A stretch of DNA of 64,000 bases from a virus (taxonomy: Duplodnaviria; Caudoviricetes), in IMG/VR virus record IMGVR_UViG_3300037439_000266, positions 269 through 64,268 of that record, one strand, 5' to 3'. Position 1 is the first letter of the stretch. Each line of letters begins with the position of its first letter. This document shows positions 42,531 through 59,160 of the stretch, piece after piece. A program made the translations under genes and the position numbers. A model generated the notes under the pieces. It worked only from the letters and a program-made list of their open reading frames with translations, searched no databases and was not told where the DNA came from.

Positions 42531-42578
42531 GGCACACCTCCACCCCAATTATCCCACAGGGAAAGCGTGTGCGCCAGT

Positions 42579-43952: not shown

Positions 43953-44202
43953 TGTCGACCTCCTCAGGGTCGGGGGCCGGTTCTACCCAGCCACTGGAGC
44001 CGTCCTTCGCCGCCGGAAGGTCAGGCAAGTTCGGGTAGACGAGAGGCGCGACCGGAACGGGGTCGGGGAGATACTCAACCACCTGCAGGTAGCCTGCGTT
44101 GATCATGGCGTCGACGTGGGTCGTTCCGAGCTCGACGTCCCCCTCGTCGCCTCGGCGCAGCCCCATCACGTTAGCCACGGCGCGCACGCGCACTTGTCCC
44201 AC
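43768..44202 (-). CDS. Small virion-associated protein with disordered tail overlapping the next gene
   Basis: Strong RBS gaaaggagg. Confidence 0.55.
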   Translation of the reverse strand: MGQVRVRAVANVMGLRRGDEGDVELGTTHVDAMINAGYLQVVEYLPDPVPVAPLVYPNLPDLPAAKDGSSGWVEPAPDPEEVDNGKSGQGKSKPAASRRRSTAPRRPTRNAGDGQDVQPSVSDSASGHGKPAGPAPDEQASGEA

Positions 44203-44929
44203 GGCGGCCTCCTTTCAGTTCGTTGGTCTCGTACGGGCTGGGCGTCGGGAAGCGCACCCGCAAGGCCGCGCCAGTCGAGCCGGACCACGCTTGGTCCGAG
44301 GTCGACAGGAACGAGCCCCGCAGGGTGGCGTTTCCCCACTTCGAGTGTACCTTGCAGTCCTGGCTCCGCTGGCCTCCGAGCTGCGCCCAGTTGCCCACCC
44401 AGGTGCGCTTCATATAGAACCGAGGCTCCAGCTCCCGCACCCCGTGCAGTGCCTCCAGGGCTCCAGTGAGCTGGGGTCGCTGGAGGGGAAGCGGAAGATG
44501 AAGCTCGTAGGTGAGCAGGCTGGGCACGTCGAAACCGAGCCGCTCGAAAGCCCGCCGAGTGTGGCGGCCTCGCGCGGCCCAGGCGCGGAGGCCGGGCTTG
44601 CGCTCGTAGTAGGCGATTCGCTCATCGAGACTCCCTCGGTGGAACAGCGGGACCTCGCGCATCGGGTGCAGGAGGAAGTAGTCGTCGTTGAACAGGTAGA
44701 ACGACTCGGGGCCGTTCTTCGCCAGCTCCTCGAAATTGCGCCAGGTGTTGGAGTGCTTGGGTCCTCGTTGGGCCACGGGCAGAAACTGCACGTCCTTGAC
44801 CCACTCGGGCTTGTGGCCCACAATCCAGACCCGGTCATGCCGCAGGTTTACCAGGCTCCGGAGGCTGTAACGCAGCTGGTCGTTGTGCTCCCCGGGCCCC
44901 ACCAGGTACACGATGTCGCGCCTAGGCAC
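44171..44929 (-). CDS. Stealth-like sugar-1-phosphate transferase / glycosyltransferase
   Basis: DIVY, LRYSLRS, V.IVG..P.W, FYLFNDD. Confidence 0.7.
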   Translation of the reverse strand: MPRRDIVYLVGPGEHNDQLRYSLRSLVNLRHDRVWIVGHKPEWVKDVQFLPVAQRGPKHSNTWRNFEELAKNGPESFYLFNDDYFLLHPMREVPLFHRGSLDERIAYYERKPGLRAWAARGRHTRRAFERLGFDVPSLLTYELHLPLPLQRPQLTGALEALHGVRELEPRFYMKRTWVGNWAQLGGQRSQDCKVHSKWGNATLRGSFLSTSDQAWSGSTGAALRVRFPTPSPYETNELKGGRRGTSARARRG

Positions 44930-45644
44930 GCCGGACCGCCTGACGGGCCCGGCCCCGGGAGCGCCCAATTGCCGCCGCGGGTGGCGAGACGGGCACCACG
45001 GGGCCGTTCCAGTTCAGCCCAGAGGCGGAGGCGTGCTCGCCGATGAACCGGTAGGCGTAGCGCCCCCGCCAGCCTCGGCCCTCCACCAGGGACGGCGCTT
45101 GGCGGTGCGACACCAGCGACGGCCACGGGTAGTAGACCGGAATGCCGAGCTTCATGCAGGCGGCCGAGATCCGGGAGTCATAGTTGGGGATATCCTCGAA
45201 CTCGTCGCCGATCGCCACGATCTCCTCGATCCGGGCGGTCGGCACTACGACACCCACCCCCCACATCAGTTCGTTCATCCGTACCCAGCGCAGCGCGGGC
45301 TGGGTGCGCTGGACCCTGAGCCAGATAGGCTTCCACGCCCGGGTGCGCCCCAGGTACAGCCCCAGAATCGAGTTCCGGGGAGCCGCGGCTAGAGCCTTCT
45401 CGACCCCGGCGGGCAGGTCCCGGCAGACCACGGCGTCATCCTGAATCACCATGTGGTGGGTCTTGCGGGCGTCGTAGGCCAGCAGGGAGCGGCGGCCGGT
45501 GTCCCAGCGGTCGTTGATCTGGTCCCAGACCACCTGGACCGGGCGGCCGATCCGGGCCCGCAAGCCGGGGATGTAGGATTCGCGCCTCGGGTGGGCCATG
45601 ATGGCGACGGACACCGAGAACTTCGAGTTGCGCCTAGTTGCCAC
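44922..45644 (-). CDS. GT-A fold glycosyltransferase
   Basis: IMAHPRR, HMVIQDDAVVC, PSLVSH. Confidence 0.7.
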   Translation of the reverse strand: MATRRNSKFSVSVAIMAHPRRESYIPGLRARIGRPVQVVWDQINDRWDTGRRSLLAYDARKTHHMVIQDDAVVCRDLPAGVEKALAAAPRNSILGLYLGRTRAWKPIWLRVQRTQPALRWVRMNELMWGVGVVVPTARIEEIVAIGDEFEDIPNYDSRISAACMKLGIPVYYPWPSLVSHRQAPSLVEGRGWRGRYAYRFIGEHASASGLNWNGPVVPVSPPAAAIGRSRGRARQAVRRA

Positions 45645-46335
45645 TGGGAGCCCCCCAGCCTGCACCCTTGCTGCGGGCGAACCCGAAGGTTGGCGTCTTG
45701 CCGAATTGACCGAAGCACTTCCACTTCGGACCGAGGAACCCCTGGATCTCCGCACGCTCGCCTTCGACGTAGAGCAGCGGCCGGTCCCGTTCCAGGGTCT
45801 CGACCGCCCCGGCCAGGACGTCCATGGCCGACCCCTCCACGTCGATTTTGATGAGCGCGGCTCGGCGTTCTGGGTTGAACATCCGGGCGGTCTCGGCGAT
45901 CGAGTCCAAGGTGACCACAGCGACGGAGCCGCCCTCGTCCGGCACGATTCGACCCATCCCGGAGTTGCCGGGGGGCCCAGGCTCGACGCGGCCCCGCCCC
46001 TCGGCGGCACCCAGGGCTACGTTGTAGATTTCGACCTGGTCGGCCTTGGCGTTCATGCGCACGTGCGAGTGCAGGTGCACGGCCGACTCCAGGTTGGGCT
46101 CCACGGCGACGACCGACAGACCGCACACCTTGGCGAACCAGAGAGTGTGGTTGCCGATGTGCGCGCCGACGTCAATGACGTAGCCGCCCTGGCCCCGGAG
46201 TCGTTGGTAAGCGTCTTCCAGGAGGTCCTGCTCGTACCAACGTCGGGACTTCAGGATCACGCGACCGATATGGTCGTCCTCGCTGACGTTCATAACCGCC
46301 GACCGGCGATGGGCAGTCAAATTAACTTGTGTCAT
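45634..46335 (-). CDS. FkbM-family SAM methyltransferase
   Basis: VIDVGAHIGNHT, VEPN, IKIDVEG. Confidence 0.9.
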   Translation of the reverse strand: MTQVNLTAHRRSAVMNVSEDDHIGRVILKSRRWYEQDLLEDAYQRLRGQGGYVIDVGAHIGNHTLWFAKVCGLSVVAVEPNLESAVHLHSHVRMNAKADQVEIYNVALGAAEGRGRVEPGPPGNSGMGRIVPDEGGSVAVVTLDSIAETARMFNPERRAALIKIDVEGSAMDVLAGAVETLERDRPLLYVEGERAEIQGFLGPKWKCFGQFGKTPTFGFARSKGAGWGAPSGN

Positions 46336-46961
46336 CAGTACCCCAGCTCCTCGGCCATGGCCATCGTTTTCCTCTTGGTGGGGCCCGTTGGGAGTTCGTC
46401 CCACTCCAGTCGCCGGGGCTGCCCGCCCTTGGTGTTCCAGTTGGGCGGGACGTTGGTGGGCAGCATCGCCCGGTAGAGGGCCCCTTCCAGCCGAGGCCGA
46501 CCGGAGTCTTGCAAGGCCAGCCCCAGCTGGGCCTCGTCGATCTCCTCGATCCGGATCCGGAGGGCCGCCAACCGCTCCACTCGTCGGTTCCACTGCAGCC
46601 AGTACCGCATGGCCGCGATGCGCGGGTCAAGTTCTTGGAGCAGCTCCGGGCACCAGAACCGCATGTACCGCCGGATGTTGGGGTAGCGGCTCACTCGCGA
46701 CCGGAGCCACGAATCGACCCAGGTCCGAGGGTCCCGCACCAGGTGCACCACCAGGACCTCGGCCAAGGTGCTGCCCTCCAGGAATGGGGCGGCGAACCAC
46801 GAGGACTCTACGGTTGCAGGCTCCAGCCGCCCCTGCTCCTCGGGCGTCGCCCGCCCTCGGAAGATCCGCTCATGGCCGCAGTCGACCCCGGCCAGGGTCA
46901 GGACCTGGGCGACGTACCCGGTTCCGGACCGCCCGCATCCGGTGAACACTAGGGGCTTCAT
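46335..46961 (-). CDS. Sulfotransferase-family protein
   Basis: TGCGRSGT (5'-PSB), HLVRDP..VDS, IRIEE. Confidence 0.8.
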   Translation of the reverse strand: MKPLVFTGCGRSGTGYVAQVLTLAGVDCGHERIFRGRATPEEQGRLEPATVESSWFAAPFLEGSTLAEVLVVHLVRDPRTWVDSWLRSRVSRYPNIRRYMRFWCPELLQELDPRIAAMRYWLQWNRRVERLAALRIRIEEIDEAQLGLALQDSGRPRLEGALYRAMLPTNVPPNWNTKGGQPRRLEWDELPTGPTKRKTMAMAEELGY

Positions 46962-47626
46962 TGCCAACGCCCCGTCCGGCTCCGCTTTCCATTCCAGTGG
47001 TGGACCGCCACGCACTCGGGCGGCCACGGCGGACGCGACTTCGGCTTACCGAGGTCTGACCACAGGTAGGGGTAGAACCTCTCTGGGCCGAGAAACTGCA
47101 TCGGCTCGCCGTTTTCGAAGTGCAGCTCCGTCATGAACTGCGGCCCCGACAGTCGGGTCGGGGTCTCGCCCCGGCGGCTGTGCGCCACCTCGGGTAGCCG
47201 CCGAATCAGAGTGTCCATGAACCAGTGACCCTGGGGGGACCCCATCAGGCCGTTGGCGGCCCACTTGCCGGGCACCTCCCAGGCGGCGAATGGTCGGTCC
47301 TGGTCGATTTCGCCGAACCACGAGTCCAGGGGCTTGAGGGGCTCGAAGTCCATGTCGATCCATACGCCGCCGAAGTTGCGCAGCAGCTCGTACCGCACTA
47401 CGTCCGACTTGAACTGTTCGGCGCGGTCGCGGCCGACGTACTCGCGGGGGTTGTGCCACTGGTGGGCGTTGTCGAGGTCGAACTGGCCGAGGCTCGTGGG
47501 GGTGTCGCCCCACAGGTAGAGAGTCCAATCGGGGTTCATCTCGGCCCAGGCGTTGCTGTACTCTTGGTACTGCCGGGGGACGGGGCTGCCGCCCCAGTAC
47601 TGGTGAATCACGCGCGGAATCGTCAC
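46958..47626 (-). CDS. GT32 / DXD sugar-binding glycosyltransferase
   Basis: IPRVIHQYW, KSDVVRYELL..FGGVWIDMD. Confidence 0.9.
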   Translation of the reverse strand: MTIPRVIHQYWGGSPVPRQYQEYSNAWAEMNPDWTLYLWGDTPTSLGQFDLDNAHQWHNPREYVGRDRAEQFKSDVVRYELLRNFGGVWIDMDFEPLKPLDSWFGEIDQDRPFAAWEVPGKWAANGLMGSPQGHWFMDTLIRRLPEVAHSRRGETPTRLSGPQFMTELHFENGEPMQFLGPERFYPYLWSDLGKPKSRPPWPPECVAVHHWNGKRSRTGRWQ

Positions 47627-48168
47627 GAGGTATCGCCTACCCACTCCGGGGGCATGGGCCAGCCAAGGGCCACGGCTCCGCCCAACAGTTCAATGTTGAA
47701 AGATTTCCGGAAGTGCGCGAGGTCGGGCTGCCGGATCGAGGGGTTGACGAAGCAGTGCTTCAGGCCCTCCGCCTCGGCCGCCAGGAGAATCCGATCAGCC
47801 GCGAAGGCCATGTCGAGGTAGGGCATGAAGTCGATCTCGCCGGGGGCCTTGTACGCCTCGGGGTCGACGTGCAGCAGCAGGATCACAGGAGATCGGTGAA
47901 TCCATCCCACACCTCCGACCAGAAGCCCCCCGAGTCGGGCCCGGTCGTCGCGCGCCCGGACCTCGGCGACTTGGACCGCTTGGCGGTTGCACGAGCTGGG
48001 CGCGGTTTTCGCCGCCACCAGAATCCGTTCAAGCGTTTCATCGCTGACCTCCGCCGAGTCGAAAATTCGGTCCGAGTGACAACGCGTCATCAGGTCCCGG
48101 AGCACCTCGGCCTTCCGCGCTTGGTGCTCTAGGTACCTTCGCTGGTAGATGTCATCGTCCTGCCCCAC
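47623..48168 (-). CDS. Nitroreductase-family flavoprotein (leaderless, -10 TAAAAT at 48175-48180)
   Basis: R.S.R.F, APSSCNRQ, AEAEGL..C, ALGWP. Confidence 0.85.
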   Translation of the reverse strand: MGQDDDIYQRRYLEHQARKAEVLRDLMTRCHSDRIFDSAEVSDETLERILVAAKTAPSSCNRQAVQVAEVRARDDRARLGGLLVGGVGWIHRSPVILLLHVDPEAYKAPGEIDFMPYLDMAFAADRILLAAEAEGLKHCFVNPSIRQPDLAHFRKSFNIELLGGAVALGWPMPPEWVGDTS

Positions 48169-48188: not shown

Positions 48189-48767
48189 TCAAGGCGAGGG
48201 TGACTCACCAGGACTGTCGGAGGGGCTCTCGTCGGGCAGCTCCTCACAGCAATCGACGTACTCGGCGGCCACGGTGACCATCTGCGTTCCGCCCGAGCAG
48301 CGGCCCGAGACGGGCAGCGGGTTCCAGTCTCCGAGCAGGTAGGTGATGTCGAGGTCCCCGAAGCAGCAGATCACGGCTCGGCGCATCGCGGCGGCGTCCT
48401 GCATCTGCTTCTCGACCAAGGCTCCCCAGTCGTCGTTGCTGGGGATGGCGGTGGCGTCCGGGGTCGGGGCGCAGCGGACCGCGCCCATCTCCATCTCCAC
48501 GGCCCACGCGCGCGGGGCCGGGCAGCCGATGGCGACCTGGTCCTGCGTCGGGAAGTCGTCGATCGAGGAGGGGAAGATTCGGTTGATTCGGACCCAGGCC
48601 AGGCCCGAGCAGCACTCGTCGTCGTAGATCGACAGCAGCGGGTCGACCTGCTGGCCGGGCCGGAGGCCGACCGAGGCGGGAGGGTCGAGCACCAGGCTGA
48701 TCTGGTCTTCCAGACAGGCCACCAGAGCCTGCGCCATTGGGAACGCTACGAGGTCTGGATAGGACAT
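48189..48767 (-). CDS. Virion protein (possible tail terminator), ends DESPSDSPGESPSP
   Basis: Position after adaptor; typical of mycobacteriophage cluster-B-like layouts. Confidence 0.6.
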   Translation of the reverse strand: MSYPDLVAFPMAQALVACLEDQISLVLDPPASVGLRPGQQVDPLLSIYDDECCSGLAWVRINRIFPSSIDDFPTQDQVAIGCPAPRAWAVEMEMGAVRCAPTPDATAIPSNDDWGALVEKQMQDAAAMRRAVICCFGDLDITYLLGDWNPLPVSGRCSGGTQMVTVAAEYVDCCEELPDESPSDSPGESPSP

Positions 48768-48768
48768 T

Positions 48769-49557
48769 CTAAGTCACCCTCCGGGCGCGTCGGCGGTCTG
48801 GGCTCCACACCCGGGGCCGGGCTTGCAGAGCAAAGGGGTTCTCGGTCTGGATGACCATGTCGATCTCCTCGATTCCGGTCAAGAATCGGGAGGAGTTGCG
48901 GTCGACGTCCTCGACTTCGATCTCGACGCCCTGGCGGGTCATCCGGCGCAGGCGCTGCGGCAGGCGGCACGGCCCCCCGGCGCAGGCGCGGCCGAACTCG
49001 CAGGCGAGGATCGAGGCGGCGTCCAGGACCGTGGGCGGCACCGGCAGGCCGCGAAGATAAACGACCTCGAAGTCCGGTGGGTCCTGGTTGCCGAAGTTCA
49101 CGCAGGTGGGCCAGCACTCCCCGTCCGTGCGGACCAGGATCGACCCGTTCATGACGACGTACGAGGCTGGCGGCACGACCACCCCGGCCTGGGTGACCGA
49201 GGTGATGGCCGAGGTCCGCGTGGGGCCCTGCAGCACGAGTTCGCAGTGGGATCCGCAGCACCCGCAGCCGCCCGCGCCGGGGTTGAACCACTGGCCGTTG
49301 ACGATGTAGGGGTAGAGGCTCCAGCCTCCACCCGCCCAGCGCCCCCAACGCTCAGGGTAGACCTGGTACAGGGGAGCTTCGCTCCGGGGCATGCAGGGCT
49401 GAATGGTCACTTCGCAGGGGCCGTAGCGGCGCCCCGTGGCGGCCCACATCATTCGAGTGGCCAGCCGGATGGCCCTGGCCTGCACGTCCTGCCCGAGCTG
49501 GGGCCAGTCGGCGCAGCACAGCTCAGGCTCTAGGGTCCAATCGCAGGGAGCTACCAT
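48769..49557 (-). CDS. Head-to-tail adaptor
   Basis: A...W.ATGRRYG.C; C.LP..V....RQGV. Confidence 0.75.
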   Translation of the reverse strand: MVAPCDWTLEPELCCADWPQLGQDVQARAIRLATRMMWAATGRRYGPCEVTIQPCMPRSEAPLYQVYPERWGRWAGGGWSLYPYIVNGQWFNPGAGGCGCCGSHCELVLQGPTRTSAITSVTQAGVVVPPASYVVMNGSILVRTDGECWPTCVNFGNQDPPDFEVVYLRGLPVPPTVLDAASILACEFGRACAGGPCRLPQRLRRMTRQGVEIEVEDVDRNSSRFLTGIEEIDMVIQTENPFALQARPRVWSPDRRRARRVT

Positions 49558-49628
49558 TGCCTACCTCCAGGGCTCGGAATTTGAAGACCCCCGCCAGACC
49601 GGGCAGGTCGGCCTGGCGGGGGCGTCGA

Positions 49629-50327
49629 TCACGGCGACTCGATGGTCAGCGGCTGGCAGCCGCACAGAGGCTCCGGCGGAGCCACCTGGGTGAACATGAA
49701 CCGTCGTGGAGTCGAAGGTGCGATGGGCGTGATCATCGGCCCGGCGACGCCGAGGGCGTCGAGTTCGACGTCGTACGGCCCGGTTCCCCACGGGGTGCCG
49801 CGGTTGGAGGTGGCGCTGACCGTGAAGTTGATGCCCGCGTTCTCGATCGTGAGGTCCCCGAAGGAACCGCGCGCCAGGAACGGCATCAGGAAGTAGCCCC
49901 AGCGCTGCCCGCCCGGAGGGCAGGCGGCCGAGTTGGTGGCCGGAACCCGGCTCCACAGCTCCAGCGCGAAGAACGCCGAGGCGTAGGTCTCGTGGTCGGT
50001 GTCGAAGCCCGAGGTGTCGCCGTTGGCGTCGAGCACCAGGGGCGAGCCGGTCATCATCTCGTACAGGTCAGGGTCGACCTCGCAGAGCTGCACCTCGGCG
50101 TTGACGAAGTTCAGCAGCGGCTTGGTCTGGTCGTAGTAGCAGTAGTCCCCGTCCGCGTTCATCTGGTTGAGGACCGTGGGGGCCTCGACGTCGTCGGACA
50201 TGCCGACCGAGATGAAGCCCTTGGAGACGACTTGCGAGCATTCGCCCTCGACGGGCTCGCCGCACTCATCCAGGCGGGTGACCCGGATCCGGGTCCCTCG
50301 CACCAGCGGGTGACAGATGGTGGCCAT
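49629..50327 (-). CDS. Major tail (tube) protein, ends CGCQPLTIESP
   Basis: RG..IRVTRLD.CG motif. Confidence 0.85.
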   Translation of the reverse strand: MATICHPLVRGTRIRVTRLDECGEPVEGECSQVVSKGFISVGMSDDVEAPTVLNQMNADGDYCYYDQTKPLLNFVNAEVQLCEVDPDLYEMMTGSPLVLDANGDTSGFDTDHETYASAFFALELWSRVPATNSAACPPGGQRWGYFLMPFLARGSFGDLTIENAGINFTVSATSNRGTPWGTGPYDVELDALGVAGPMITPIAPSTPRRFMFTQVAPPEPLCGCQPLTIESP

Positions 50328-50329
50328 GG

Positions 50330-50836
50330 TCAGCCCTCCTCAGTGGTGTCAGCCAGGGCCTGGAATTGGGCCTTGGTAAAGGTTTCTACCTGCTCGGCGT
50401 CCAGCCCGATTTCCCGAGCCCACTCCGCCCAGGCGTCGCGGTTGGCCTTCTTGCCGGGGGGCTTGGGCCGCGAGACGACCGCCACGGTGACCTGACCCGG
50501 GTCGGGGAACTCGGTCTGCTCGAATTCGGGCAGGACCTCCTCCTCGTCGGGCTCATTGAGGTACAGGTACAGTTCGCGCAGGGCGGCGTCCGAGGCGCGG
50601 CGACCGACCAGGTCCTCCAGCTTCGGGTCGACCCGAATCAAGCTCTCCAGGAACTCGGGGCTCGGCGCGGTCGTCAGGGTCAGCCACATCAGGGCCAGCT
50701 CGTCGTCCACGATTGCGCCCGAGCCGTGAACGGCTCGGCGCACCCGGTGGGGGGCCCCGCCGTCCAGGAGCTGCAGGTCTCGGATCAGGGACAGGAGGTC
50801 GTGGCTGTTCTGGCTGGTGTGAATCGTAACGGTCAT
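50330..50836 (-). CDS. Virion-associated hypothetical protein, 168 aa
   Basis: Position; small helical C-domain. Confidence 0.7.
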   Translation of the reverse strand: MTVTIHTSQNSHDLLSLIRDLQLLDGGAPHRVRRAVHGSGAIVDDELALMWLTLTTAPSPEFLESLIRVDPKLEDLVGRRASDAALRELYLYLNEPDEEEVLPEFEQTEFPDPGQVTVAVVSRPKPPGKKANRDAWAEWAREIGLDAEQVETFTKAQFQALADTTEEG

Positions 50837-50839
50837 GGT

Positions 50840-51610
50840 TCAGGCCCCCAAGGTGACGCTGGCTACGGCGCACTCGACCGCCACGGCATAGACCCGCTCG
50901 GCGACCGTGAACCACTGGTTGGTGGCGCGGTCGAAGGTCTGGACCGGGTCCGGCACCTCGATGTCGGAGCGCCACACCCGGGCCTCGCCCGAGATGAAGA
51001 TGGTGCCCTCGGGGTAGCCCCCGCCCACGGACCAGATGGTACCGTAGGGCGTGCGGTAGCGGCTGCCGTCGCGTTCCCACTGCATTTCGGCGGCGGCCAA
51101 GGCCGCAACCCCGGGGCTGGCGTGAATGAAGCCCTCGCGGCCGTAGGCGGCAGTGCCGTAGAGCCACTGCTCCAGCTCGGCCACGGCTCCCGCCACGAGG
51201 ACCTCGTTGCCCAGCGCCACGTCCTGGGAGGCGAGGACGGCCGCCATGGCGGACTCGACCTCGAACTGCTCCCCGTTCTCCAGGTTCTGGCGGGCCCGCC
51301 GCTCAGACTTCGCGGCCGAGGTGCCCAGCGACCCGCAGGTGCTGGAGCCGTAGACTACGAACGGCTCCGCCTCCACGAACGCGGGGATCTCGTCGAAGAC
51401 CTTCTCGGCGGGCGACTCGTCGGCGGGCGAATCGTCCTCGCAGTCCATCGGCCAGGAGTGCGCGATCCCGCAGGTGTTGGGCTCGTAGATGAGCCCTCCG
51501 CCTGACTGGTGGTCGGTGAGTGGGAGCAGGGCCCCCACGGCGGCGAACAGCCCGTACCGCAACGGCCGGGGCATCGGCGGTTCGATGACGTCGGGTGGCA
51601 TGATTGCCAT
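50840..51610 (-). CDS. Second capsid protein (putative pentamer/vertex capsomer)
   Basis: Follows major capsid; YGLF, PFVVYG..C, T..G..V/W.GGGY. Confidence 0.65.
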   Translation of the reverse strand: MAIMPPDVIEPPMPRPLRYGLFAAVGALLPLTDHQSGGGLIYEPNTCGIAHSWPMDCEDDSPADESPAEKVFDEIPAFVEAEPFVVYGSSTCGSLGTSAAKSERRARQNLENGEQFEVESAMAAVLASQDVALGNEVLVAGAVAELEQWLYGTAAYGREGFIHASPGVAALAAAEMQWERDGSRYRTPYGTIWSVGGGYPEGTIFISGEARVWRSDIEVPDPVQTFDRATNQWFTVAERVYAVAVECAVASVTLGA

Positions 51611-51651
51611 GGCCCTGCTCCCTTCTCAGAGTTAGTTCGGTCAGATCAGGG

Positions 51652-53505
51652 TTACGGCGACTCGATGACCGACGACGCCTCGCAGAGGCAGCCGCATGGG
51701 TCGAGACGAACAGTGAACACCCGGCTGATCGGGCACATCTGCATGACCGCCCAGCCGTCCTCCACGAAGATCGCGGTGTACTGGTTGGTGGTCAGCAGGG
51801 TGCTGTCGTAGATGGTGTCGAGGTTGACGACGTCGGCCGTTGCCTTCAGCCAGGTACCCGCCGGGTACATGATGAAGCGGACCTCGGTCGGCAGCGCGGT
51901 CCGGGGGACCAGGCCACCCATTCCGCCGACTCCGCCGTCGCTGAACGCGTCCTGCCAGTCGTAGACGAAGCGCGGAACGAGGCGGCGAGCGGTGAAGAAC
52001 GACAGCAGCTCGGCGTCCGAGACCATCATCTCGAAGACCCCGCGCCGACGAGCGGCGGCAGCACGCAGCTGGGGGATCACCCAGTGCGGCAGGATCATCT
52101 CCATGGAAGTCGCGAATGGCATGCGGGCCCGGTAGAGGATGTCCTCGCGAGCTGCCTCCGCTGCGCTCAGCAGCGAGCCGAGGGCGTCGTCGCCGCCCGC
52201 ACCCAGGCAGTCCTCCATGGTGCCGCCGTCGACGGAACCGGCTTCGATTCCGGCGATGACACCCTGGTTGATCTTGTGGGCGAGGGCGATCATCGCACCT
52301 CGGCTGAACCGCTGCACGACCTCGGGGTAGCCGCGGCGCTGCAGCAGCCCTCCGGTGATGCAGACGTAGTCGACGCCGAGCCGGATGTCCTCGAATGGAG
52401 GACACGGGATCTCGGTGCAGACCTTCTCGGTCGGGATCGCGACCTCGGCCTCGGTCAGGTGGGTGTCACCTGCGTTGCCGATGCTGGTGAAGATGGTGCT
52501 GAAGTCGATGCCGCCGTCGATCGGGATGTTGAACCCGCCTCGGTCGGCCGTGACCTCAGGGACCGCCAGGAGGCCGTCCAGCGACTCCTGCTCGCACAGG
52601 TCGTAGATGGTCTCCGAAGGCGCACACCAGCCGGTGGCGGCGACGAGGTTTCCGGTCTGCTTGACCTCGGCCTCCAGAGCCGCGACCAGCGAGCCGCCCG
52701 TGAGGCGCTTCTCCGATACGGCCGACTCCATCGCCCGGAGGTTGAACTCCGCGCCGTTCTCCGAGGAGAGCCGCAGCTCGTCCGGGTACTCGCGCTTGAA
52801 GTTCACCGCCTGGTGACGGCTGAAGGTCTTCATCTTGTGGCGGTCGACGTTGCGGAAGCGACCGGCGCGGTCCACGTCCTCGACCGAGGTGACATCGACG
52901 TCGATGACCTTGGACGCCCGAGGAGCCTTGCGGATGGTCTTGTTCTTGCCGGTCATCGAGTAGGCGTCGAGGCGGTTCTGAACCACCCGGGCGGCCTGGC
53001 CGAAGCTGGTCAGCGGCGTCTGGGCGGGAACGCCCGGGACGTCCACGGCGGCGACCATCGAGGCCCGCAGGCGCGGGCTCTGAGGCTGTCCCTCGCGGAC
53101 GGGGGCCTGCGGCTGAGTGGAGCTGGCGACGTCGGCCACGCGAGGTGCGGCCGCCACGACGCCGGGGGCGACGGGCTCGACTGCTGCGGGGTCCGCGGCA
53201 GGCGGCTCGGCCACCTCGGGCTCGACGGGAGCCTGCGGCTCGGTGGGGGCCTCGGGCTCAGCCGGAGCGCTCAGCTCAGTCAGGCGGGCCTGGGAAGCGG
53301 CGAACCGGTCGCGGCGCTCGCGCTCGGCGACCACCGGCCCGGACAGCTCAGCGAGCTGGTCCATCTGCTCCACGACCTCTTCGGTCAGGGCGTCTCCCGT
53401 GAGGGCCGCGAATTCGGCTCCCACGGTGGCGAACTGTCCGATCAGCTCCTGGAGAGCCTGGTCCGACAGGCCCCGGAGGTTATCCGGAACGATTGGGAAA
53501 GTCAT
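51652..53505 (-). CDS. Major capsid protein with N-terminal scaffold-like domain, ends CGCLCEASSVIESP
   Basis: GWCAPSETIYD; HK97-type C-half. Confidence 0.9.
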   Translation of the reverse strand: MTFPIVPDNLRGLSDQALQELIGQFATVGAEFAALTGDALTEEVVEQMDQLAELSGPVVAERERRDRFAASQARLTELSAPAEPEAPTEPQAPVEPEVAEPPAADPAAVEPVAPGVVAAAPRVADVASSTQPQAPVREGQPQSPRLRASMVAAVDVPGVPAQTPLTSFGQAARVVQNRLDAYSMTGKNKTIRKAPRASKVIDVDVTSVEDVDRAGRFRNVDRHKMKTFSRHQAVNFKREYPDELRLSSENGAEFNLRAMESAVSEKRLTGGSLVAALEAEVKQTGNLVAATGWCAPSETIYDLCEQESLDGLLAVPEVTADRGGFNIPIDGGIDFSTIFTSIGNAGDTHLTEAEVAIPTEKVCTEIPCPPFEDIRLGVDYVCITGGLLQRRGYPEVVQRFSRGAMIALAHKINQGVIAGIEAGSVDGGTMEDCLGAGGDDALGSLLSAAEAAREDILYRARMPFATSMEMILPHWVIPQLRAAAARRRGVFEMMVSDAELLSFFTARRLVPRFVYDWQDAFSDGGVGGMGGLVPRTALPTEVRFIMYPAGTWLKATADVVNLDTIYDSTLLTTNQYTAIFVEDGWAVMQMCPISRVFTVRLDPCGCLCEASSVIESP

Positions 53506-53602
53506 GACTGCACATCCTCTCAGATGTCTCTGTCCCGGCCGGACCAAGGCCGACGCTGAATTTTCTTCCGGGCAAGCCTACCACGAAAGCGGTTTCGAAT
53601 TG

Positions 53603-53770
53603 TTACGACTCGATCGGTTCGATCGTGGCCTTGGGGTCCCGGGAGGCCCGGATGCGGGCCGCCGCGAGGGAGCTGCGCTCCTCGGTCTTGCCGTCCGAGT
53701 ATCGGATCAGGAACCTCTGGGGGGTCTTGGCACTCTTGCCGCAGCACGCCCCGGGAGTCTTAGTAGTCAT
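53603..53770 (-). CDS. 55-aa head-module microprotein (GACCGK...)
   Basis: Translated manually; RBS gaaagg. Confidence 0.65.
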   Translation of the reverse strand: MTTKTPGACCGKSAKTPQRFLIRYSDGKTEERSSLAAARIRASRDPKATIEPIES

Positions 53771-53783
53771 TTTCTCTGCCTTT

Positions 53784-55586
53784 CTACTTGAACTTCTTGA
53801 GCTGCAGGTTCAGCATCGCAACCCGCGCGCGAGCGCGACGGGCGGCGATCTGCCGAGCCTCGTTGCCGGGCGTAATGGCCTCCGAGGCGACCATGGTTCC
53901 GGCCGACAACTCCACAGTGCGCTCCGCCCCCGGCTCCACGGTCGGAGCCTGAGGCTCGGGAACCGGGACCGGTCGAGGGCAGACCTGGGAGGCGGCGACC
54001 AGGGAGACCTGGCGGCCGTCGCGGTAGCCCACGGCGACCCGAGGCACCTCGAAGCCAGGCTCCTCGCGGGCCAGTGCCAGGACCTCGCACAGTTCGCGCG
54101 TGGCCCCGAGGTCCCGCCAGTCGCCCGAGACGCGGCGGCGAGCCAGAACGGCCCGCTCCGCCTCGCCGAGGCCGGGGGCCTCGACGCCCGAGAACCAGAT
54201 CGCACCGGGGATTCGTTCGGTGTCGATGCCGACCCGGACCCAGGCAAGGGTTTTCAGGCCGTCGTGGTGCTTCACGGCATCCAGGAATTCGAAGTCCACG
54301 CAGGCGTGGTCGTCGAGGCCCTTGCAACCGAGGTGCGAACAGCTGTTGCCGACCTGGCCGAGGCCCGAGGTGATTCGGCCGACCGTGATCGCCCCCTCGG
54401 CGGTGTCGAACGGGTAGCGGTGGAACAGGCCGTAGTCGGTCTGCGACTCCGGCGGGGTCATGCACTGGTCCCGGAACCCCCGGTGGCAGCTGTTGGGGTC
54501 GGTCAGGTGACCGAACACCCGAACGGTGCCGTCCGGCTGAACCTCCCGCACCAGGGCGGTCAGCTGATCCAGCTTGGGGTCCATGAACAGCCCCACTGGA
54601 GGAAGTGCAGCTCGAAGCCGGTCGGCGGCCACGGCGCTTTTCCGGGCAGCCTCGGCGGTGGCCTCGACGTCGTTTTGGCCGAACGGGCAGGTGGGCCAGT
54701 CCTCGAACTCGCGCCGGACCCGGTCGTAGAGCGCGCAGACCCGAGACTCGACCTTCGCCCGGTCCGAATCGGGAATCGAGGCGGCACTCACCCCCCGGCC
54801 TCCGGCGGTCGCGGCGACCCCGGCGGGGATGATCTCCAGGCCGCCGTTCAGGACATCCGCGAACGGCAGCTTGTACGAGCCCCGGTCCTGGGGGTCCCCC
54901 TCGGAGTCGCGCCACAGGAAGGCCCGAGCCACCCCGCTGACGTCGACGTTGCCCGCATCGTCGGTGAACAGGTCGAACACCCGGCTGGCTGCGGCGTCGC
55001 CATCCCAACTCCGGTCGCGTCCGGCAACGGGCAGGTCGGTGGAGCCGATGACGGCGGCAACCAGCGTGGCAGCCTCGGCGTCCTCGTCCAGTTCGAGCTC
55101 GAAGGTGACCCCCGAGAAGGCGGGGGTCGCGACCAGGGTCGCGCCTGCGATCTCGTAGTGAGTGAACAGCAGCTCCACATCCGGGAACTCGCCCGCCTCC
55201 TCGTCCAGGGCGGCCTCGAACATCTCCCAGGTGAGGGGCTCGTCCGTTCCCGCGAGGACCTCTACGGCCTGAACAGCGCCAGGATCGACACTCGGCCCCA
55301 CGACGCCCTGCCGGATCAGCTCCATGACGTGCTGGACGTCGGCCCGCAGCGACTCGGACTCGGCGTCGTCGAACATGACCCCGGAGCCGTCGACCCACTC
55401 GTCGCTGATCTCCAGCTCCTGGATGGAGCCCACGGTGACCGAGGTCAGGTGGCCCTCCGAGGACTGGCGCTGCCAGTTGATCGGCTGGGGCAGAGCCCGA
55501 TTGGAGACGCCCCCGGCCTTGAAGCGGCGACCATCCCCGGTGGGCTGGTTGACCAGGGCCAGCCGCCCTTTCCACTTAGTTGCCAT
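53784..55586 (-). CDS. Capsid maturation protease/scaffold
   Basis: TGDGR.F, GPSVD, GATLV..PAF; position. Confidence 0.8.
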   Translation of the reverse strand: MATKWKGRLALVNQPTGDGRRFKAGGVSNRALPQPINWQRQSSEGHLTSVTVGSIQELEISDEWVDGSGVMFDDAESESLRADVQHVMELIRQGVVGPSVDPGAVQAVEVLAGTDEPLTWEMFEAALDEEAGEFPDVELLFTHYEIAGATLVATPAFSGVTFELELDEDAEAATLVAAVIGSTDLPVAGRDRSWDGDAAASRVFDLFTDDAGNVDVSGVARAFLWRDSEGDPQDRGSYKLPFADVLNGGLEIIPAGVAATAGGRGVSAASIPDSDRAKVESRVCALYDRVRREFEDWPTCPFGQNDVEATAEAARKSAVAADRLRAALPPVGLFMDPKLDQLTALVREVQPDGTVRVFGHLTDPNSCHRGFRDQCMTPPESQTDYGLFHRYPFDTAEGAITVGRITSGLGQVGNSCSHLGCKGLDDHACVDFEFLDAVKHHDGLKTLAWVRVGIDTERIPGAIWFSGVEAPGLGEAERAVLARRRVSGDWRDLGATRELCEVLALAREEPGFEVPRVAVGYRDGRQVSLVAASQVCPRPVPVPEPQAPTVEPGAERTVELSAGTMVASEAITPGNEARQIAARRARARVAMLNLQLKKFK

Positions 55587-55615
55587 AGGGCACCTCCATT
55601 TCGAATTCTATCTCG

Positions 55616-55855
55616 CTAAGGGGACTCGTCGGGGTCGGGAAGGGGCTCGGGTGCCCCCTCCACCGGAATCCGGATGTGGTGAATGATGTCGTCGTCGTTG
55701 CTTCGCACCAGCACGCCGTTGGGGTCCAGCTTCACGCACTGGGCGGTTACCTCGCTGGCGGTGAGCTGCACAGCGATGGTCAGCTTGGGGTTGAGACCCA
55801 AGGAGTTCAGAATCGCCGCCAAGGTGGCAGGCGTGATCGAGGCCGGGATCGCCAT
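55616..55855 (-). CDS. 79-aa head-module protein, ends PDPDESP
   Basis: RBS gaggag. Confidence 0.65.
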   Translation of the reverse strand: MAIPASITPATLAAILNSLGLNPKLTIAVQLTASEVTAQCVKLDPNGVLVRSNDDDIIHHIRIPVEGAPEPLPDPDESP

Positions 55856-56128: not shown

Positions 56129-56977
56129 TTAGAGAATTCCCCGGAACCCTCGGTTGCTGAAATTGACTTCCCGGCCCTCTTCGACCAGAATTGTGGTGCA
56201 CCGGCACTGAATGGTCTCGTCCGCCGGGCCCAGGGGGTCCCCCGGGAACCGCAGCTCGGAGCTTCCCACTTGGAACCTTGCACCGACTGCGATTCGTTGG
56301 CCGTCCGCCGCCCGGTGGGTGGGGCGCGTTCGCAGGTCGTCCGTGGCGAGCCACTGCTGCTCGAACCTGAGCTCCGGCACCTCAGTGGCAATTGCCTGGA
56401 AGCTGTCGGTGCGGCCCGCGTTGAGGGCCCCGATGGTCTCGGTTCGAGCGACCACGGTGGCCCGGTTGCGCCACAGCGGGTTGTTCTGGTCCAGCAGCTC
56501 CGAGAGTGCCTCGGCGGTCTGGGGGATTGACCAGCCCTCCTGGGTGCCTTGGGCCACGCGGGCGGCAACCCTCGTGTAGACCTCGTTGTCGACGTCGCGC
56601 ATCCGGCTCTCGACCTGCGCCAGGTAGGCCACCACGGCGGGGCGCGAGTCGAATTGGACGTCCGGGCCGAAGATCGCTTGGAAAACGCTCTCGATCACGT
56701 CCCGAATCGCCGTCGCCACGAAGTCGGCCATGGCGCGGTGCCAACTGCCCTCGACGCTGAACACGCTCTGGGGGTCGGGAACTTGCGAAGCAAGCACTGC
56801 CCGCAGGACCTCGACCAGGAACGTCGACAGGTACGACCAGAAGCTCTCGTAGACCCGCTGCTCCGCCGCCGCAATTTGGGCCGAGGCGCGCAGCCGCGAG
56901 GGCAGCCACGGGTCGAACCCCTCGCCGCCCCAAACCGGCGGGGGGAAGTCCTCCTCGCCGTTGCCTCGGTCGCTCAC
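56129..56977 (-). CDS. MuF-like minor head protein
   Basis: RA..VARTE, W.AT.D.RTRPTH..ADGQ, FPGDP, I.CRC. Confidence 0.9.
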   Translation of the reverse strand: MSDRGNGEEDFPPPVWGGEGFDPWLPSRLRASAQIAAAEQRVYESFWSYLSTFLVEVLRAVLASQVPDPQSVFSVEGSWHRAMADFVATAIRDVIESVFQAIFGPDVQFDSRPAVVAYLAQVESRMRDVDNEVYTRVAARVAQGTQEGWSIPQTAEALSELLDQNNPLWRNRATVVARTETIGALNAGRTDSFQAIATEVPELRFEQQWLATDDLRTRPTHRAADGQRIAVGARFQVGSSELRFPGDPLGPADETIQCRCTTILVEEGREVNFSNRGFRGIL

Positions 56978-59160
56978 GGCAGCTCCCGCGCCGGAGGCTG
57001 AGCCCCCGCCAAGGCCCGCGCCAGCACCTGCTCCAGAAGGTCGGAGTGGTGCGCAACGCCCCGCATGATGAGTTCGACGCAGTACTGGTGCAGGAGCGTT
57101 TCGAGCCCTGCGACGTCTCGAACGCCGAGACTCCGCACGACCGGGGCCAGGTGCGTCCAGGAGCCCTTCAGGGCCCACTCGGCGCGGTCCCGGGTGACCC
57201 CCTCGGCCCAGGTGTGCAGTTCGTGGCGGGCGGCGTCGCGGGGCCGGTTCGGAACGAGTCGGCCCCCAGCCAGCTCCAGCGCCCGCAGCACTGCCAGGTT
57301 GCAGCAGGCAACGAGTCCGGAGGGAATGGTCTGCCCATCGTCGTCCTCCCGCGCGGGCCTCTCGGGCAGCTCCCGCTCGGGGTCGGGAACCTCCCGTCCC
57401 TCTTCGACGTTCTCGGTGTTGCCCGATGGCGGTGGCGGTTTGCGCCCCTCGTCCGTGGGCCGCCCCCGGTCGTCGGTGTCGATCGACGGGTTGAGCAGGT
57501 ACGCGATCTCGGGGTTCAGGCCCAGAATCCGCCGCACGTCCGGGTCCATCATCATGGTGGACGGAGCAACGCGGATGGCGTCCTCGACCATTCGGCGCAG
57601 GCGCTCGTCCGCCGCCGGGGCGAGGGCGTCATCGAAGTCGGTGATCTCCCGCAGCGCGGCGTCGCTGATGATGCGCCTCTCGTGCAGCTCAAGCGCCGTA
57701 GTGGTCTTGTCCCCCCGAACCTGCAGGCTCGAAGTGTTGAACTTGTAGGCGAACCGCTTGGGGTCCCGCCCGATCCTCCGGAGAACCGGCATCAGCCACG
57801 GCCGAGTGAGGCCGTCCGCAATCAGGCCCAGCAGCGGCTCGATGTGGGTGCTGATGGTGTTCTCGTCCAGCAGCCAGGCCGACCAGTGGTTGGTCTGCCC
57901 CATCCCCTGCATCATCTCGACCGGGGCGTCGAGGCTCATGGCCGTCATCTTCAGCGCGGAGTCCTTCATCGGAAGGATCGCCTCGGACAGCTCGGTCCAG
58001 AACGTGATGTGCCGGATCTCTTTGAGGGCCTCGGCCGGACCCTGAATCCCAATGGGAACCATGGCGGCGGCCGAGCTTCGGTCCTGGAGGGACTCGCTCA
58101 TGGCGTTGCCGAGGTCCGCCAGGAAGCCGTCGAGGCCGCTCTCGCTCTCGGTGTCGTCGTCGGCGTCCCCCCGGGGGAAGTCCATGTTGTCCGGAACGGC
58201 GAAGATTCCCGCGCCCGCAAGCCTTGAGTCCAGCTCGGCGAACTCGCGCTTCCGGAGGGCCTCCAGTTCGCGCAGATCGGGAATTGCGGACCTCACCGGG
58301 CTGTCGGGCTCGTCGATGTCGACCGGGTGCGGCACCCAGATCCGCATCAGGATGTCCTTCTCATCGACCGGGGTGAAGTAGCCCCCGCCCATGAGGGTGG
58401 GCCGCCGGATGATGACCTGGTCACCCTGGAGGGTCAGTTGCTCGGCGCTGACCACGTACCAGCGGTCGGCGTCGTCGCCGTCCGGGCCGACCAAGGTGGG
58501 GGGGCGGTCGTTGCCGTTCTCGTCAACGTTCTGGAACCCGCCGACACTCTGTCCGCCGCCCGGCAACGGCTCGTTCAGAGTCTGGTCGAAGCCCTCCGCA
58601 ATGACGTAAGCCTCACCCGCCACCTGCAGGTTGATACACATGAGCCGAATCGCCTCGGCCCGGGACTCGCCCGAGCCCAGCGGCCCCTTCGCCAGCTCGG
58701 CGACTTCGAGGTCCTGGGTCTCGACGTGGATGTCGCCGGAGTCGTCGACCTCCCCCACGAACAGCTTGGCCTTGGAGGCCGTTTTGGCGATGCTGTTGAC
58801 CACGAACCGCAAGGGCCCGGTGATGTCGTAGAGTCGCCACGCCTCCCGCTGCCACTCGCGGCTGTTGATCGGCCAGTTCCTCCACGAGGCCCCGCCGAAC
58901 TGAATCCTGGCCACGGCGGCTACGGTTCCGCGCGTTCGCGCGTTCGCTCCGCCCCGGTTGCTGGCCTCGCCGAGGTTCGCCCGCTCGACTTCGGGCCGCT
59001 GGGGGGTGTGGGCCTTGCAGTAGCCGCCGTGCGTGGGAACTCCCCAGAGGCGGCACGGCTGGCCGGACTTCGTTTTGCCCAGGCACTGACGGCCCTCGGT
59101 GGGCGACGGGAACGCGGGGGCAACGGTCGGCTGGCGGCGATTGAGACGGAGTCGGCTCAT
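56974..59160 (-). CDS. Portal protein
   Basis: Position between terminase and MuF; WQREAW..YD...LRF motif. Confidence 0.8.
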   Translation of the reverse strand: MSRLRLNRRQPTVAPAFPSPTEGRQCLGKTKSGQPCRLWGVPTHGGYCKAHTPQRPEVERANLGEASNRGGANARTRGTVAAVARIQFGGASWRNWPINSREWQREAWRLYDITGPLRFVVNSIAKTASKAKLFVGEVDDSGDIHVETQDLEVAELAKGPLGSGESRAEAIRLMCINLQVAGEAYVIAEGFDQTLNEPLPGGGQSVGGFQNVDENGNDRPPTLVGPDGDDADRWYVVSAEQLTLQGDQVIIRRPTLMGGGYFTPVDEKDILMRIWVPHPVDIDEPDSPVRSAIPDLRELEALRKREFAELDSRLAGAGIFAVPDNMDFPRGDADDDTESESGLDGFLADLGNAMSESLQDRSSAAAMVPIGIQGPAEALKEIRHITFWTELSEAILPMKDSALKMTAMSLDAPVEMMQGMGQTNHWSAWLLDENTISTHIEPLLGLIADGLTRPWLMPVLRRIGRDPKRFAYKFNTSSLQVRGDKTTTALELHERRIISDAALREITDFDDALAPAADERLRRMVEDAIRVAPSTMMMDPDVRRILGLNPEIAYLLNPSIDTDDRGRPTDEGRKPPPPSGNTENVEEGREVPDPERELPERPAREDDDGQTIPSGLVACCNLAVLRALELAGGRLVPNRPRDAARHELHTWAEGVTRDRAEWALKGSWTHLAPVVRSLGVRDVAGLETLLHQYCVELIMRGVAHHSDLLEQVLARALAGAQPPARELP

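What the first reader, a model, noticed from the sequence alone, without database searches (positions are those of the whole stretch)
48189..55855. Shared (Cys)...acidic-ESP tag on unrelated virion proteins: a candidate glycosylation sequon
Seen: major capsid ends CGCLCEASSVIESP; major tail ends LCGCQPLTIESP; 48189..48767 ends DCCEELPDESPSDSPGESPSP; 55616..55855 ends PDPDESP; the second capsid protein has an internal CEDDSPADESP. These are different folds, so the motif is convergent. None of the non-virion proteins I read ends this way. Inference: ESP (Ser acceptor) is the recognition tag for the adjacent cassette, giving hundreds of modified sites per particle. The nearby Cys clusters could be redox-handled by the nitroreductase (speculative). 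A portable tag would be useful for engineering.
Basis: partly seen in the sequence, partly recalled or inferred. Interest (0 to 1): 0.88.

Follow-up and report, generated by a model that had tools for sequence, protein, structure and literature searches.

The report
Shared Ser-Pro tails on virion proteins
Four or five unrelated virion proteins of this uncultured actinobacterial phage carry the same short acidic-Ser-Pro tag, most likely the attachment site for sugars added by the phage's own glycosyltransferases, which would be a new variant of the virion glycosylation already shown in mycobacteriophages.

Summary
Major capsid protein and tail tube both end in IESP. The tail terminator ends in a three-fold [DE]SP tail. 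A small head-module protein ends in DESP, and the penton protein has an internal DSPADESP loop. The chance of at least 3 of 71 genes ending in ESP is about 1e-6, and the codons differ, so the conservation is at protein level.

Relatives with the same gene cassette (L003, L099, L004/L007) keep ESP or x-S-P tails.

The cassette's GT-A gene is homologous to Che8 gp110 and Corndog gp38. Papers read here report glycosylated virion proteins in those two phages and glycans at the C-termini of mycobacteriophage capsid and tail-tube subunits. In four cultured phages with such a transferase (Che8, Corndog, Fryberger, GMA2), capsid and tail tube end in Ser in 8 of 8 cases. In three phages without one (L5, TM4, Rosebush) the figure is 1 of 6.

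So the glycosylation-tag reading is well supported by comparison, but no chemistry has been done. Three things differ here:
- the Ser is next to last and followed by Pro;
- more proteins carry the tag;
- the cassette adds nitroreductase, GT32, sulfotransferase-like and Stealth-like genes.

The idea that the nitroreductase handles the nearby Cys clusters is not supported: the Cys motifs are kept in 20-30 relatives that have no nitroreductase.

Verdict: a new variant of a known kind, of moderate interest.

The parts
51652..53547 (-). Major capsid (hexamer-type) protein. The likely start is the ATG at 53505. The C-terminal tail is CGCLC-EASSVI-ESP, and the ESP codons lie at 51655-51663.
   Evidence: phrog_777, E 1e-123. 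52% identical to the phiAsp2 major head protein. Tail read. Tail kept as VIESP in L003 and L099 and as PTSP in L007.
49629..50327 (-). Tail tube protein. The tail is CGC-QPLTI-ESP, and the ESP codons lie at 49632-49640.
   Evidence: phrog_792. AlphaFold2 mean pLDDT 82.5; the block of the last two residues (231-232) averages pLDDT 47. Tail-tube fold. The closest public homologues end IESP, IDSP, ITSP, LESP or IPSP. About half of the family carries a PKD domain after the CGC motif.
48189..48767 (-). Tail terminator (lambda gpU-like). It has an unstructured 22-residue tail, DCC-EELP-DESP-SDSP-GESP-SP, at 48192-48257.
   Evidence: phrog_810. AlphaFold2 pLDDT 90 for the body; residues 171-192 score 60-71 with no secondary structure. 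Foldseek best matches are lambda gpU, E 3e-5. L003 ends ESPAESPSESP and L007 ends ETSP.
50840..51610 (-). Penton-type capsid protein. It has an internal tag DSPADESP (residues 60-67, about 51410-51433) right after a conserved Cys. Its C-terminus is untagged (TLGA).
   Evidence: phrog_779. The loop is kept in L003 (DDSPAEESP) and in shorter form in L007 (DESP). It is absent in L005, phiAsp2, L033 and L051.
55616..55855 (-). 79-aa protein of unknown role between the MuF-like gene and the protease/scaffold gene. It ends PDPDESP.
   Evidence: The homologue in L003 ends DPAESP with different codons. No family hit. Only unnamed clusters in the ESM Atlas.
44922..45617 (-). GT-A glycosyltransferase of the Che8 gp110 / Corndog gp38 type, GT25-like. 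It is the core of the ORF 44922-46010.
   Evidence: BLASTP E 4.6e-12 to Che8 gp110 and 9e-8 to Corndog gp38. phrog_854 'glucosyltransferase', E 6.6e-30. gp110 and gp38 hit PF01755. 254 phage records hold a homologue.
46958..47644 (-). Glycosyltransferase with a DXD sugar-binding region (GT32-like).
   Evidence: PF04488, E 1.5e-10. Homologues in L003, L007, L099 and the L032 record.
47623..48168 (-). Nitroreductase-family flavoprotein, first gene of the cassette.
   Evidence: PF00881, E 1.4e-15. Found in L003, L004/L007, L099 and L100, but in only 1 of 38 whole records searched.
46335..47027 (-). 230-aa protein, possibly sulfotransferase-like.
   Evidence: No Pfam, NCBIfam or PHROG hit here. 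Its L099 homologue carries a 'faint' PF13469 mark.
45634..46593 (-). FkbM-family methyltransferase. The true start is probably downstream of 46593.
   Evidence: PF05050, E 7.6e-12. TIGR01444, E 2.7e-25.
44171..44968 (-). Stealth-like protein, a possible hexose-1-phosphate transferase.
   Evidence: phrog_7999, E 1.7e-57. A weak PF11380 hit here. PF11380 is recorded for its L100 homologue.

Best explanation
The short tails and the one loop ending in or containing x-Ser-Pro are flexible, surface-exposed acceptor tags. In this phage they read [Asp/Glu]-Ser-Pro. After translation, and in the host cytoplasm, a phage glycosyltransferase puts the first sugar on the Ser hydroxyl. The best candidate is the gp110-like GT-A enzyme at 44922-45617. 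The other cassette enzymes then extend and decorate the glycan: the GT32-like transferase, the FkbM methyltransferase, and the sulfotransferase-like and Stealth-like proteins. Because capsid and tail-tube subunits carry the tag, hundreds of sites per particle would be coated.

Shown here: the tags exist, are non-random, are conserved at protein level and travel with the cassette. The transferase is homologous to the one called essential in Che8 and Corndog. The tails are disordered in the models.

Inferred: that Ser is modified, which enzyme starts the glycan, and what the glycan is.

The conserved Cys just upstream belong to a family-wide structural Cys network. They probably only pin the chain at the surface before the free tail.
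For: 1. The tags are real and non-random.
2. Protein-level conservation with synonymous codon changes. The linker between Cys and Ser-Pro varies while Ser-Pro stays.
3. Every relative found with ESP or x-S-P tails on capsid and tail tube carries the nitroreductase and GT32-like genes next to the terminator gene, and wherever the contig reaches far enough also the gp110-like gene: L003, L099 and L007. L004, a near-identical shorter contig, ends after the nitroreductase.
4. The GT-A gene is homologous to Che8 gp110 and Corndog gp38. PMC12363180 calls these essential for capsid glycosylation. PMC12619734 states that glycans sit at the C-termini of capsid and tail tube.
5. Capsid and tail-tube termini in cultured phages with this transferase:
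- Che8: TGS and DGS.
- Corndog: VGS and GDS.
- Fryberger: AGS and PAS.
- GMA2: TGS on head, penton-like protein and tail, with its methyltransferase and two transferases at the same genome position as here.
That is Ser in 8 of 8, against 1 of 6 in L5, TM4 and Rosebush, which lack such genes. My own Fisher calculation on those counts gives p = 0.003.
6. Across 74 non-redundant relatives, 61% of the termini of five structural families are S or SP, against 12.8% of background ORFs.
7. Exposure. The terminator tail is unstructured. The block of the last two tail-tube residues averages pLDDT 47. 59 of 120 tail-tube homologues continue at exactly this point into a PKD or Ig-like domain, and those rarely end in Ser: 8 of 59 against 29 of 61.
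Against: - No chemistry of any kind. This is a metagenomic record.
- In every experimentally studied or cultured case the Ser is the last residue. Here it is followed by Pro, so the acceptor geometry differs. A free C-terminal carboxylate on the Ser itself cannot be part of recognition.
- Within this phage family the link between transferase and Ser tails rests on only about 3 evolutionary changes. There are just 2-3 independent pairs, and the sign test is not significant. The family-wide Fisher value is therefore inflated.
- Some relatives with GT2-family transferases have no Ser or Thr termini (L074, L082).
- Phage glycosyltransferases can serve other ends, such as DNA or host envelope modification.
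- The primary paper (Freeman 2023) could not be read here. What it says about the exact residue is taken from secondary summaries and from the sequences themselves.
Confidence: 0.7

Rival explanations
1. The Ser-Pro tags are acceptors for a different modification made by the same cassette. One version is a sugar-1-phosphate joined to Ser by the Stealth-like protein (phosphoglycosylation). Another is a modification that needs the nitroreductase-fold flavoprotein. In both, the gp110-like enzyme acts later or elsewhere.
For: The nitroreductase is found only in the clade whose tail tubes carry a next-to-last Ser: window, L003, L004/L007, L099 (ESP or VSP) and L100 (PSV). It is in 1 of 38 other records. 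The Stealth-like gene is likewise seen in the window, L003, L007 and L100, not in the part of L099 examined, and in 1 of 38 other records. L100 keeps the nitroreductase and the Stealth-like gene, and no GT32-like or gp110-like gene was found nearby.
Against: The Stealth assignment is weak for the window's own protein (PF11380 E 0.0055, below the cut-off). No known pathway links a nitroreductase to protein Ser modification. The gp110-like transferase is the only component with a published genetic link to virion glycosylation.
Confidence: 0.12
2. The tails are not modified. They are structural or protective features, for example a C-terminal Pro that blocks carboxypeptidases or degradation signals, or a short arm used in assembly. 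Their co-occurrence with glycosyltransferases would then reflect shared ancestry.
For: Inside the family, transferase and tail type change together only about 3 times, which fits inheritance by clade. The adaptor and terminator, which also end in Ser in many relatives, are partly buried parts of the neck.
Against: The same pattern recurs in unrelated structural modules: Che8, Corndog and Fryberger. It is absent in L5, TM4 and Rosebush. The linkers vary freely while only the Ser or Ser-Pro is kept. A tripled tag on the terminator and an internal copy in the penton loop are hard to explain as end protection.
Confidence: 0.12
3. The Cys clusters plus the nitroreductase form a peptide-chemistry system, such as redox handling or thiazole-type chemistry at Cys, and ESP is only a neighbour.
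For: Cys pairs lie 4-9 residues upstream of each terminal tag. Nitroreductase-fold enzymes act as dehydrogenases in some peptide natural-product pathways (my own knowledge, not tested here).
Against: The same Cys motifs are conserved in 20-30 of the 36 searched relatives with no nitroreductase anywhere in the record. The Cys are part of protein-wide conserved sets: C5, C22, C136 and C222 in the tail tube, and nine in the terminator. No cyclodehydratase-like gene is seen in the cassette.
Confidence: 0.03
4. The motif is a chance or compositional effect of a high-GC proteome rich in Glu, Ser and Pro, or a nucleotide motif at gene ends.
For: Ser and Pro each make up 6-7% of residues, and Asp plus Glu 12%.
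Against: P is about 1e-6 for three ESP ends in 71 genes. The tags are conserved in relatives at 55-69% identity with different codons.
Confidence: 0.01

Closest known systems
Virion O-glycosylation of mycobacteriophages Che8 (cluster F), Corndog (O) and Myrna (C): Freeman et al. 2023, Cell Host Microbe 31:1216. The paper could not be read here. It is summarised in PMC12619734, PMC12363180 and PMC11600133.
   Same: - The phage carries its own transferases plus a methyltransferase.
- One transferase is homologous to gp110 and gp38.
- Capsid and tail-tube subunits of unrelated fold carry a matching short C-terminal tail with Ser.
- Hundreds of sites per particle are expected.
   Different: - Che8 and Corndog end in G/D-Ser with Ser as the very last residue. 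Here Ser is next to last and followed by Pro.
- Tags also sit on the tail terminator (tripled), on an internal penton loop and on a small head-module protein.
- The methyltransferase is FkbM-type, not TylF-type.
- The cassette adds nitroreductase, GT32-like, sulfotransferase-like and Stealth-like genes.
- The cassette lies inside the virion operon.
Gordonia phage GMA2 (NC_070761), a cultured phage whose head and tail genes lie in the same order as in the window.
   Same: - The gene order is head, penton-like protein, tail tube, adaptor, then a methyltransferase and transferase cassette before the tail-completion genes.
- Three virion proteins share one C-terminal tag.
   Different: - The tag is TGS with a terminal Ser.
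- The cassette has only a methyltransferase and two transferases.
- No nitroreductase, GT32-like or Stealth-like gene is annotated in the cassette or the first 50 kb.
- To my knowledge no glycosylation data exist for GMA2.
Actinoplanes phage phiAsp2, the closest cultured relative (capsid 52% identical).
   Same: - The same structural module and the same Cys motifs.
- It carries pas33 (GT2 family), pas34 (methyltransferase) and pas35 (gp110-like).
- Four of its five structural termini end in Ser or Ser-Pro: tail tube LSS, adaptor AGS, terminator ASS, penton VSP. The capsid ends GCCP.
   Different: - The transferase genes lie about 18-20 kb downstream of the capsid gene, not next to the terminator gene.
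- No nitroreductase or Stealth-like gene.
- The tags are mostly a terminal Ser.

Membership tests
Che8/Corndog-type phage virion glycosylation system | A phage-encoded glycosyltransferase homologous to Che8 gp110 / Corndog gp38 | tested here: met
   Window 44922-45617: BLASTP E 4.6e-12 to gp110 and 9e-8 to gp38. phrog_854, E 6.6e-30.
Che8/Corndog-type phage virion glycosylation system | Further glycosyltransferase(s) and a methyltransferase encoded together with it | tested here: met
   PF04488 transferase. FkbM methyltransferase. The methyltransferase family differs from Che8 gp108 and Corndog gp35, which are TylF / Methyltransf_24.
Che8/Corndog-type phage virion glycosylation system | Capsid and tail-tube subunits both end in a short tail whose last residue is Ser | tested here: not met
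   Che8, Corndog, Fryberger and GMA2 all end in Ser. Here both end in Ser-Pro. A shared Ser-bearing C-terminal tail is present, but the Ser is next to last.
Che8/Corndog-type phage virion glycosylation system | Glycans demonstrably attached to the virion proteins | not testable with these tools
   Metagenomic record, no particles. Needs mass spectrometry or glycan staining.
Stealth hexose-1-phosphate transferases (for the gene at 44171-44968) | Match to the conserved Stealth regions above the family threshold | tested here: inconclusive
   PF11380 E 0.0055, 17.3 bits against a cut-off of 39.4. PF11380 is recorded for the L100 homologue.
Peptide natural-product dehydrogenases of the nitroreductase fold, acting on Cys-derived rings | A partner cyclodehydratase, and co-occurrence of the enzyme with the Cys-bearing substrate | tested here: not met
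   No such partner in the cassette. The Cys motifs persist in relatives without any nitroreductase.

The most novel reading that the evidence does not exclude
This clade has changed the chemistry as well as the tag. A next-to-last Ser, followed by Pro (or Val/Ile in a sister group), is recognised at chain ends and in an internal loop. It receives a glycan that is phosphodiester-linked or otherwise unusually decorated (methylated, perhaps sulfated), built with the Stealth-like, sulfotransferase-like and nitroreductase-fold enzymes. That would make [D/E]-S-P a minimal, fold-independent, cytoplasmic O-glycosylation tag that can be moved between proteins.
Probability: 0.12. Interest if true: 0.75.

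Novelty: new variant of a known kind. Interest (0 to 1): 0.48.

Why it matters
If the tags are glycan acceptors, glycosylated virion proteins could be read straight from sequence: a matching Ser-bearing tail on unrelated structural proteins, together with a gp110-like transferase. That would extend virion glycosylation from a few mycobacteriophages to a large group of soil actinophages.

The Ser-Pro variant shows three things that would interest people who want a short tag for cytoplasmic protein glycosylation or for coating phage particles:
- the acceptor need not be the last residue;
- it can be repeated;
- it can sit in a loop.

It does not open a new field. The principle was published in 2023.

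Tried and rejected
- **Nucleotide motif at gene ends.** Rejected, because the codons differ.
- **Chance.** Rejected.
- **Nitroreductase acting on the Cys clusters.** Rejected on distribution.
- **Relatives with Ser tails but no transferase.** The complete record behind L032 looked like one (no PF00535 or PF01755 hit). A Pfam scan of 64 of its ORFs then found PF04488 and a methyltransferase, and a protein search found a gp110-like gene.
- **Family-wide statistics.** The Fisher test (70/90 against 29/77) does not survive a phylogeny-aware check, which leaves only 2-3 independent pairs. I rest the argument on unrelated lineages instead.
- **Primary paper.** Freeman 2023 is not held. Several citing papers gave only general statements.
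- **Other searches.**
  - The scan of genome contigs with the capsid protein found nothing.
  - The PDB sequence search found no solved homologue of capsid or tail tube.
  - The function of the 79-aa protein could not be assigned.
- **Not attempted.** No coordinates were available from the models, so Cys-Cys distances and solvent exposure of the tails could not be measured.

Full report
**What the window is**

The window is nearly the whole of a 64,268-base IMG/VR virus record that CheckV rates as complete. GC content is 63-71%.

The structural genes lie on the minus strand:
- terminase 59530-61350
- portal 56974-59160
- MuF-like gene 56129-57178
- a 79-aa gene 55616-55855
- a 600-aa protease/scaffold-like gene 53784-55586
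- major capsid protein 51652-53547
- a penton-type capsid protein 50840-51610
- tail tube 49629-50327
- head-tail adaptor 48769-49557
- a 192-aa gene 48189-48767
- a six-gene enzyme cassette 44171-48168
- tail-completion genes
- tape measure 39819-42548

The closest cultured phage is Actinoplanes phage phiAsp2, whose capsid protein is 52% identical. The capsid family also covers cluster B mycobacteriophages and many Microbacterium, Gordonia and Arthrobacter phages.

- With the window's own residue frequencies, three or more of 71 genes ending in ESP has a probability of 1.1e-6.
- [DE]SP is 17 times denser in the tagged proteins than in the rest of the proteome.
- No credible non-virion gene ends in Ser-Pro.
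- The tag is spelled with different codons in different genes and genomes, so it is kept at protein level.
- The tail tube was confirmed by fold.
- The 192-aa protein folds as a lambda gpU-type tail terminator. Its last 22 residues are unstructured.
- The 79-aa protein remains unassigned.

**Relatives**

Searches of IMG/VR with the capsid protein, alone and as an alignment, gave 81 loci in all. Two more came from the protein collection.

| Relative | Capsid identity | Tags | Cassette genes found |
|---|---|---|---|
| L003 | 69% | ESP on all four proteins; penton loop kept | whole cassette |
| L099 | 69% (partial gene) | VIESP on capsid and tail tube | nitroreductase, GT32-like, sulfotransferase-like, FkbM, gp110-like |
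| L004/L007 | 55% | TSP, VSP, GSP, TSP; a shorter DESP loop | nitroreductase, GT32-like, two gp110-like, Stealth-like |

These rows rest. The acidic residue is therefore optional. The constant part is Ser-Pro at the end.

A sister group of tail tubes ends in Pro-Ser-Val or Pro-Ser-Ile. One of them, L100, has the nitroreductase and the Stealth-like gene nearby.

**The wider pattern**

Most other relatives, the phiAsp2-like ones, end these proteins in Ser:
- capsid: usually GCCP, or a tail ending in Ser
- penton: EVTSP or GGVS
- tail tube: CGCQSLSS
- adaptor: AGS
- terminator: GPTSS

Over 74 non-redundant loci, 200 of 326 such termini are S or SP, against 203 of 1589 background ORFs.

I then searched 37 relatives' whole records:

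| Gene sought | Records with a hit |
|---|---|
| GT2-family transferase (PF00535) | 29 |
| gp110-like transferase | 20 |
| GT32-like transferase (PF04488) | 2 |

- In all, 34 of the 37 records had at least one of these three. No transferase was found in L051, L077 or L080.
- L077 and L080 have Ser or Ser-Pro at 1 of 8 termini. L051 has it at 2 of 5, with Thr at 2 more.
- One apparent exception was the complete L032 record. A closer look showed that it carries a GT32-like and a gp110-like gene.
- On an MCP tree the two traits change only about three times each, so the within-family association is not statistically independent.

**Independent lineages**

The gp110-like gene links this phage to published work. 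PMC12363180 names Che8 gp110 and Corndog gp38 as the two transferases essential for capsid glycosylation. It lists Che8, Corndog and Myrna as phages with glycosylated proteins. PMC12619734 states that glycans were observed at the C-termini of capsid and tail tube.

I read the termini directly:

| Phage | Transferase status | Capsid end | Tail-tube end |
|---|---|---|---|
| Che8 | gp110 | TGS | DGS |
| Corndog | gp38 | VGS | GDS |
| Gordonia phage Fryberger | gp110-like hit | AGS | PAS |
| Gordonia phage GMA2 | gp110-like hit | TGS | TGS |
| L5 | no PF00535 hit; not among the 254 records matched (all Mycobacterium, Gordonia, Actinoplanes or Mycolicibacterium by name) | TEA | PEG |
| TM4 | not checked for gp110-like; no PF00535 hit | PAA | ISV |
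| Rosebush | no gp110-like, PF00535, PF01755 or PF04488 hit | TLA | AAS |

Fryberger and GMA2 were picked only because the window's transferase matched them. GMA2 also ends its penton-like protein in TGS. Its methyltransferase and two transferases sit at the same place in the operon as the cassette here.

That is 8 of 8 against 1 of 6. My own Fisher calculation on those counts gives p = 0.003. The sample is small, but the lineages are unrelated in their structural genes.

**Exposure**

- Half of the public tail-tube homologues (59 of 120) continue right after the CGC motif into a PKD or Ig-like domain, a typical surface decoration.
- Those forms rarely end in Ser: 8 of 59, against 29 of 61 for the short forms.
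- The short Ser tail and the PKD domain therefore look like alternative decorations at the same outward-facing point.

**The Cys clusters**

They are not special to the tags.
- The tail tube has 3.4% Cys, the adaptor 5.3% and the terminator 5.2%.
- Conserved positions are spread along the chains.
- The motifs persist in relatives that have no nitroreductase.
- They most likely form a structural network, disulfide or metal, that anchors the chain just before the free tail. This is inference; no coordinates were available to test it.

**What is new, and what is not**

C-terminal glycosylation of capsid and tail tube by phage enzymes is known. Three things differ here:
- the form of the tag (a next-to-last Ser followed by Pro, repeated three times on the terminator, and placed once in an internal loop);
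- the number of tagged proteins;
- the cassette. The nitroreductase and the Stealth-like gene occur only in this clade.

The nitroreductase's role is unexplained.

**Verdict**

The glycosylation-tag reading is the best explanation, at about 0.7. The nitroreductase-Cys idea is rejected. This is a new variant of a known kind and of moderate interest.

Noticed in passing
window 48189-50327 and 48769-49557; alignments A3 and A4: The tail tube, adaptor and terminator are unusually rich in Cys: 3.4%, 5.3% and 5.2%. Positions are conserved across relatives, for example C5, C22, C136 and C222 in the tail tube and nine in the terminator. This suggests disulfide or metal cross-bracing of the virion.
   Followed up: partly
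proteins P0034-P0120, homologues of window 49629-50327: About half of the tail-tube homologues are about 315 aa long, with a PKD or Ig-like domain fused directly after the CGC motif. The short forms instead end in Ser, Ser-Pro or Thr. These look like two alternative surface decorations at one site.
   Followed up: partly
window 53603-53770 (minus strand): A 55-aa ORF lies between the protease/scaffold gene and the capsid gene. It is conserved in L003 and L007, with a Cys-Cys-Gly motif near the N-terminus. It ends IES here, IDA in L003 and IDS in L007. Its function is unknown.
   Followed up: partly
L103 (Gordonia phage GMA2) 15295-21652: In this cultured phage the head, penton-like and tail proteins all end in TGS. 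A methyltransferase and two glycosyltransferases sit between the neck genes and the tail-completion genes, as in the window. It is a ready experimental model for this structural family.
   Followed up: partly
window 47623-48168 and 44171-44968: The nitroreductase-family gene and the Stealth-like gene are each found in only 1 of 38 other records searched. They occur only in the clade whose tail tubes carry a next-to-last Ser (SP, SV, SI). The nitroreductase's role is unexplained.
   Followed up: partly
window 53784-55586 (minus strand): This 600-aa protein matches PHROG families annotated as portal protein (phrog_859) and head maturation protease (phrog_18402, residues 333-547). It may be a fused protease/scaffold of the Rosebush gp13 type.
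   Followed up: no
L100 3353-3823: A relative's contig carries an SsgA-family gene (PF04686). To my knowledge this family is typical of sporulating actinomycetes, which hints at a Streptomyces-like host for this phage group.
   Followed up: no
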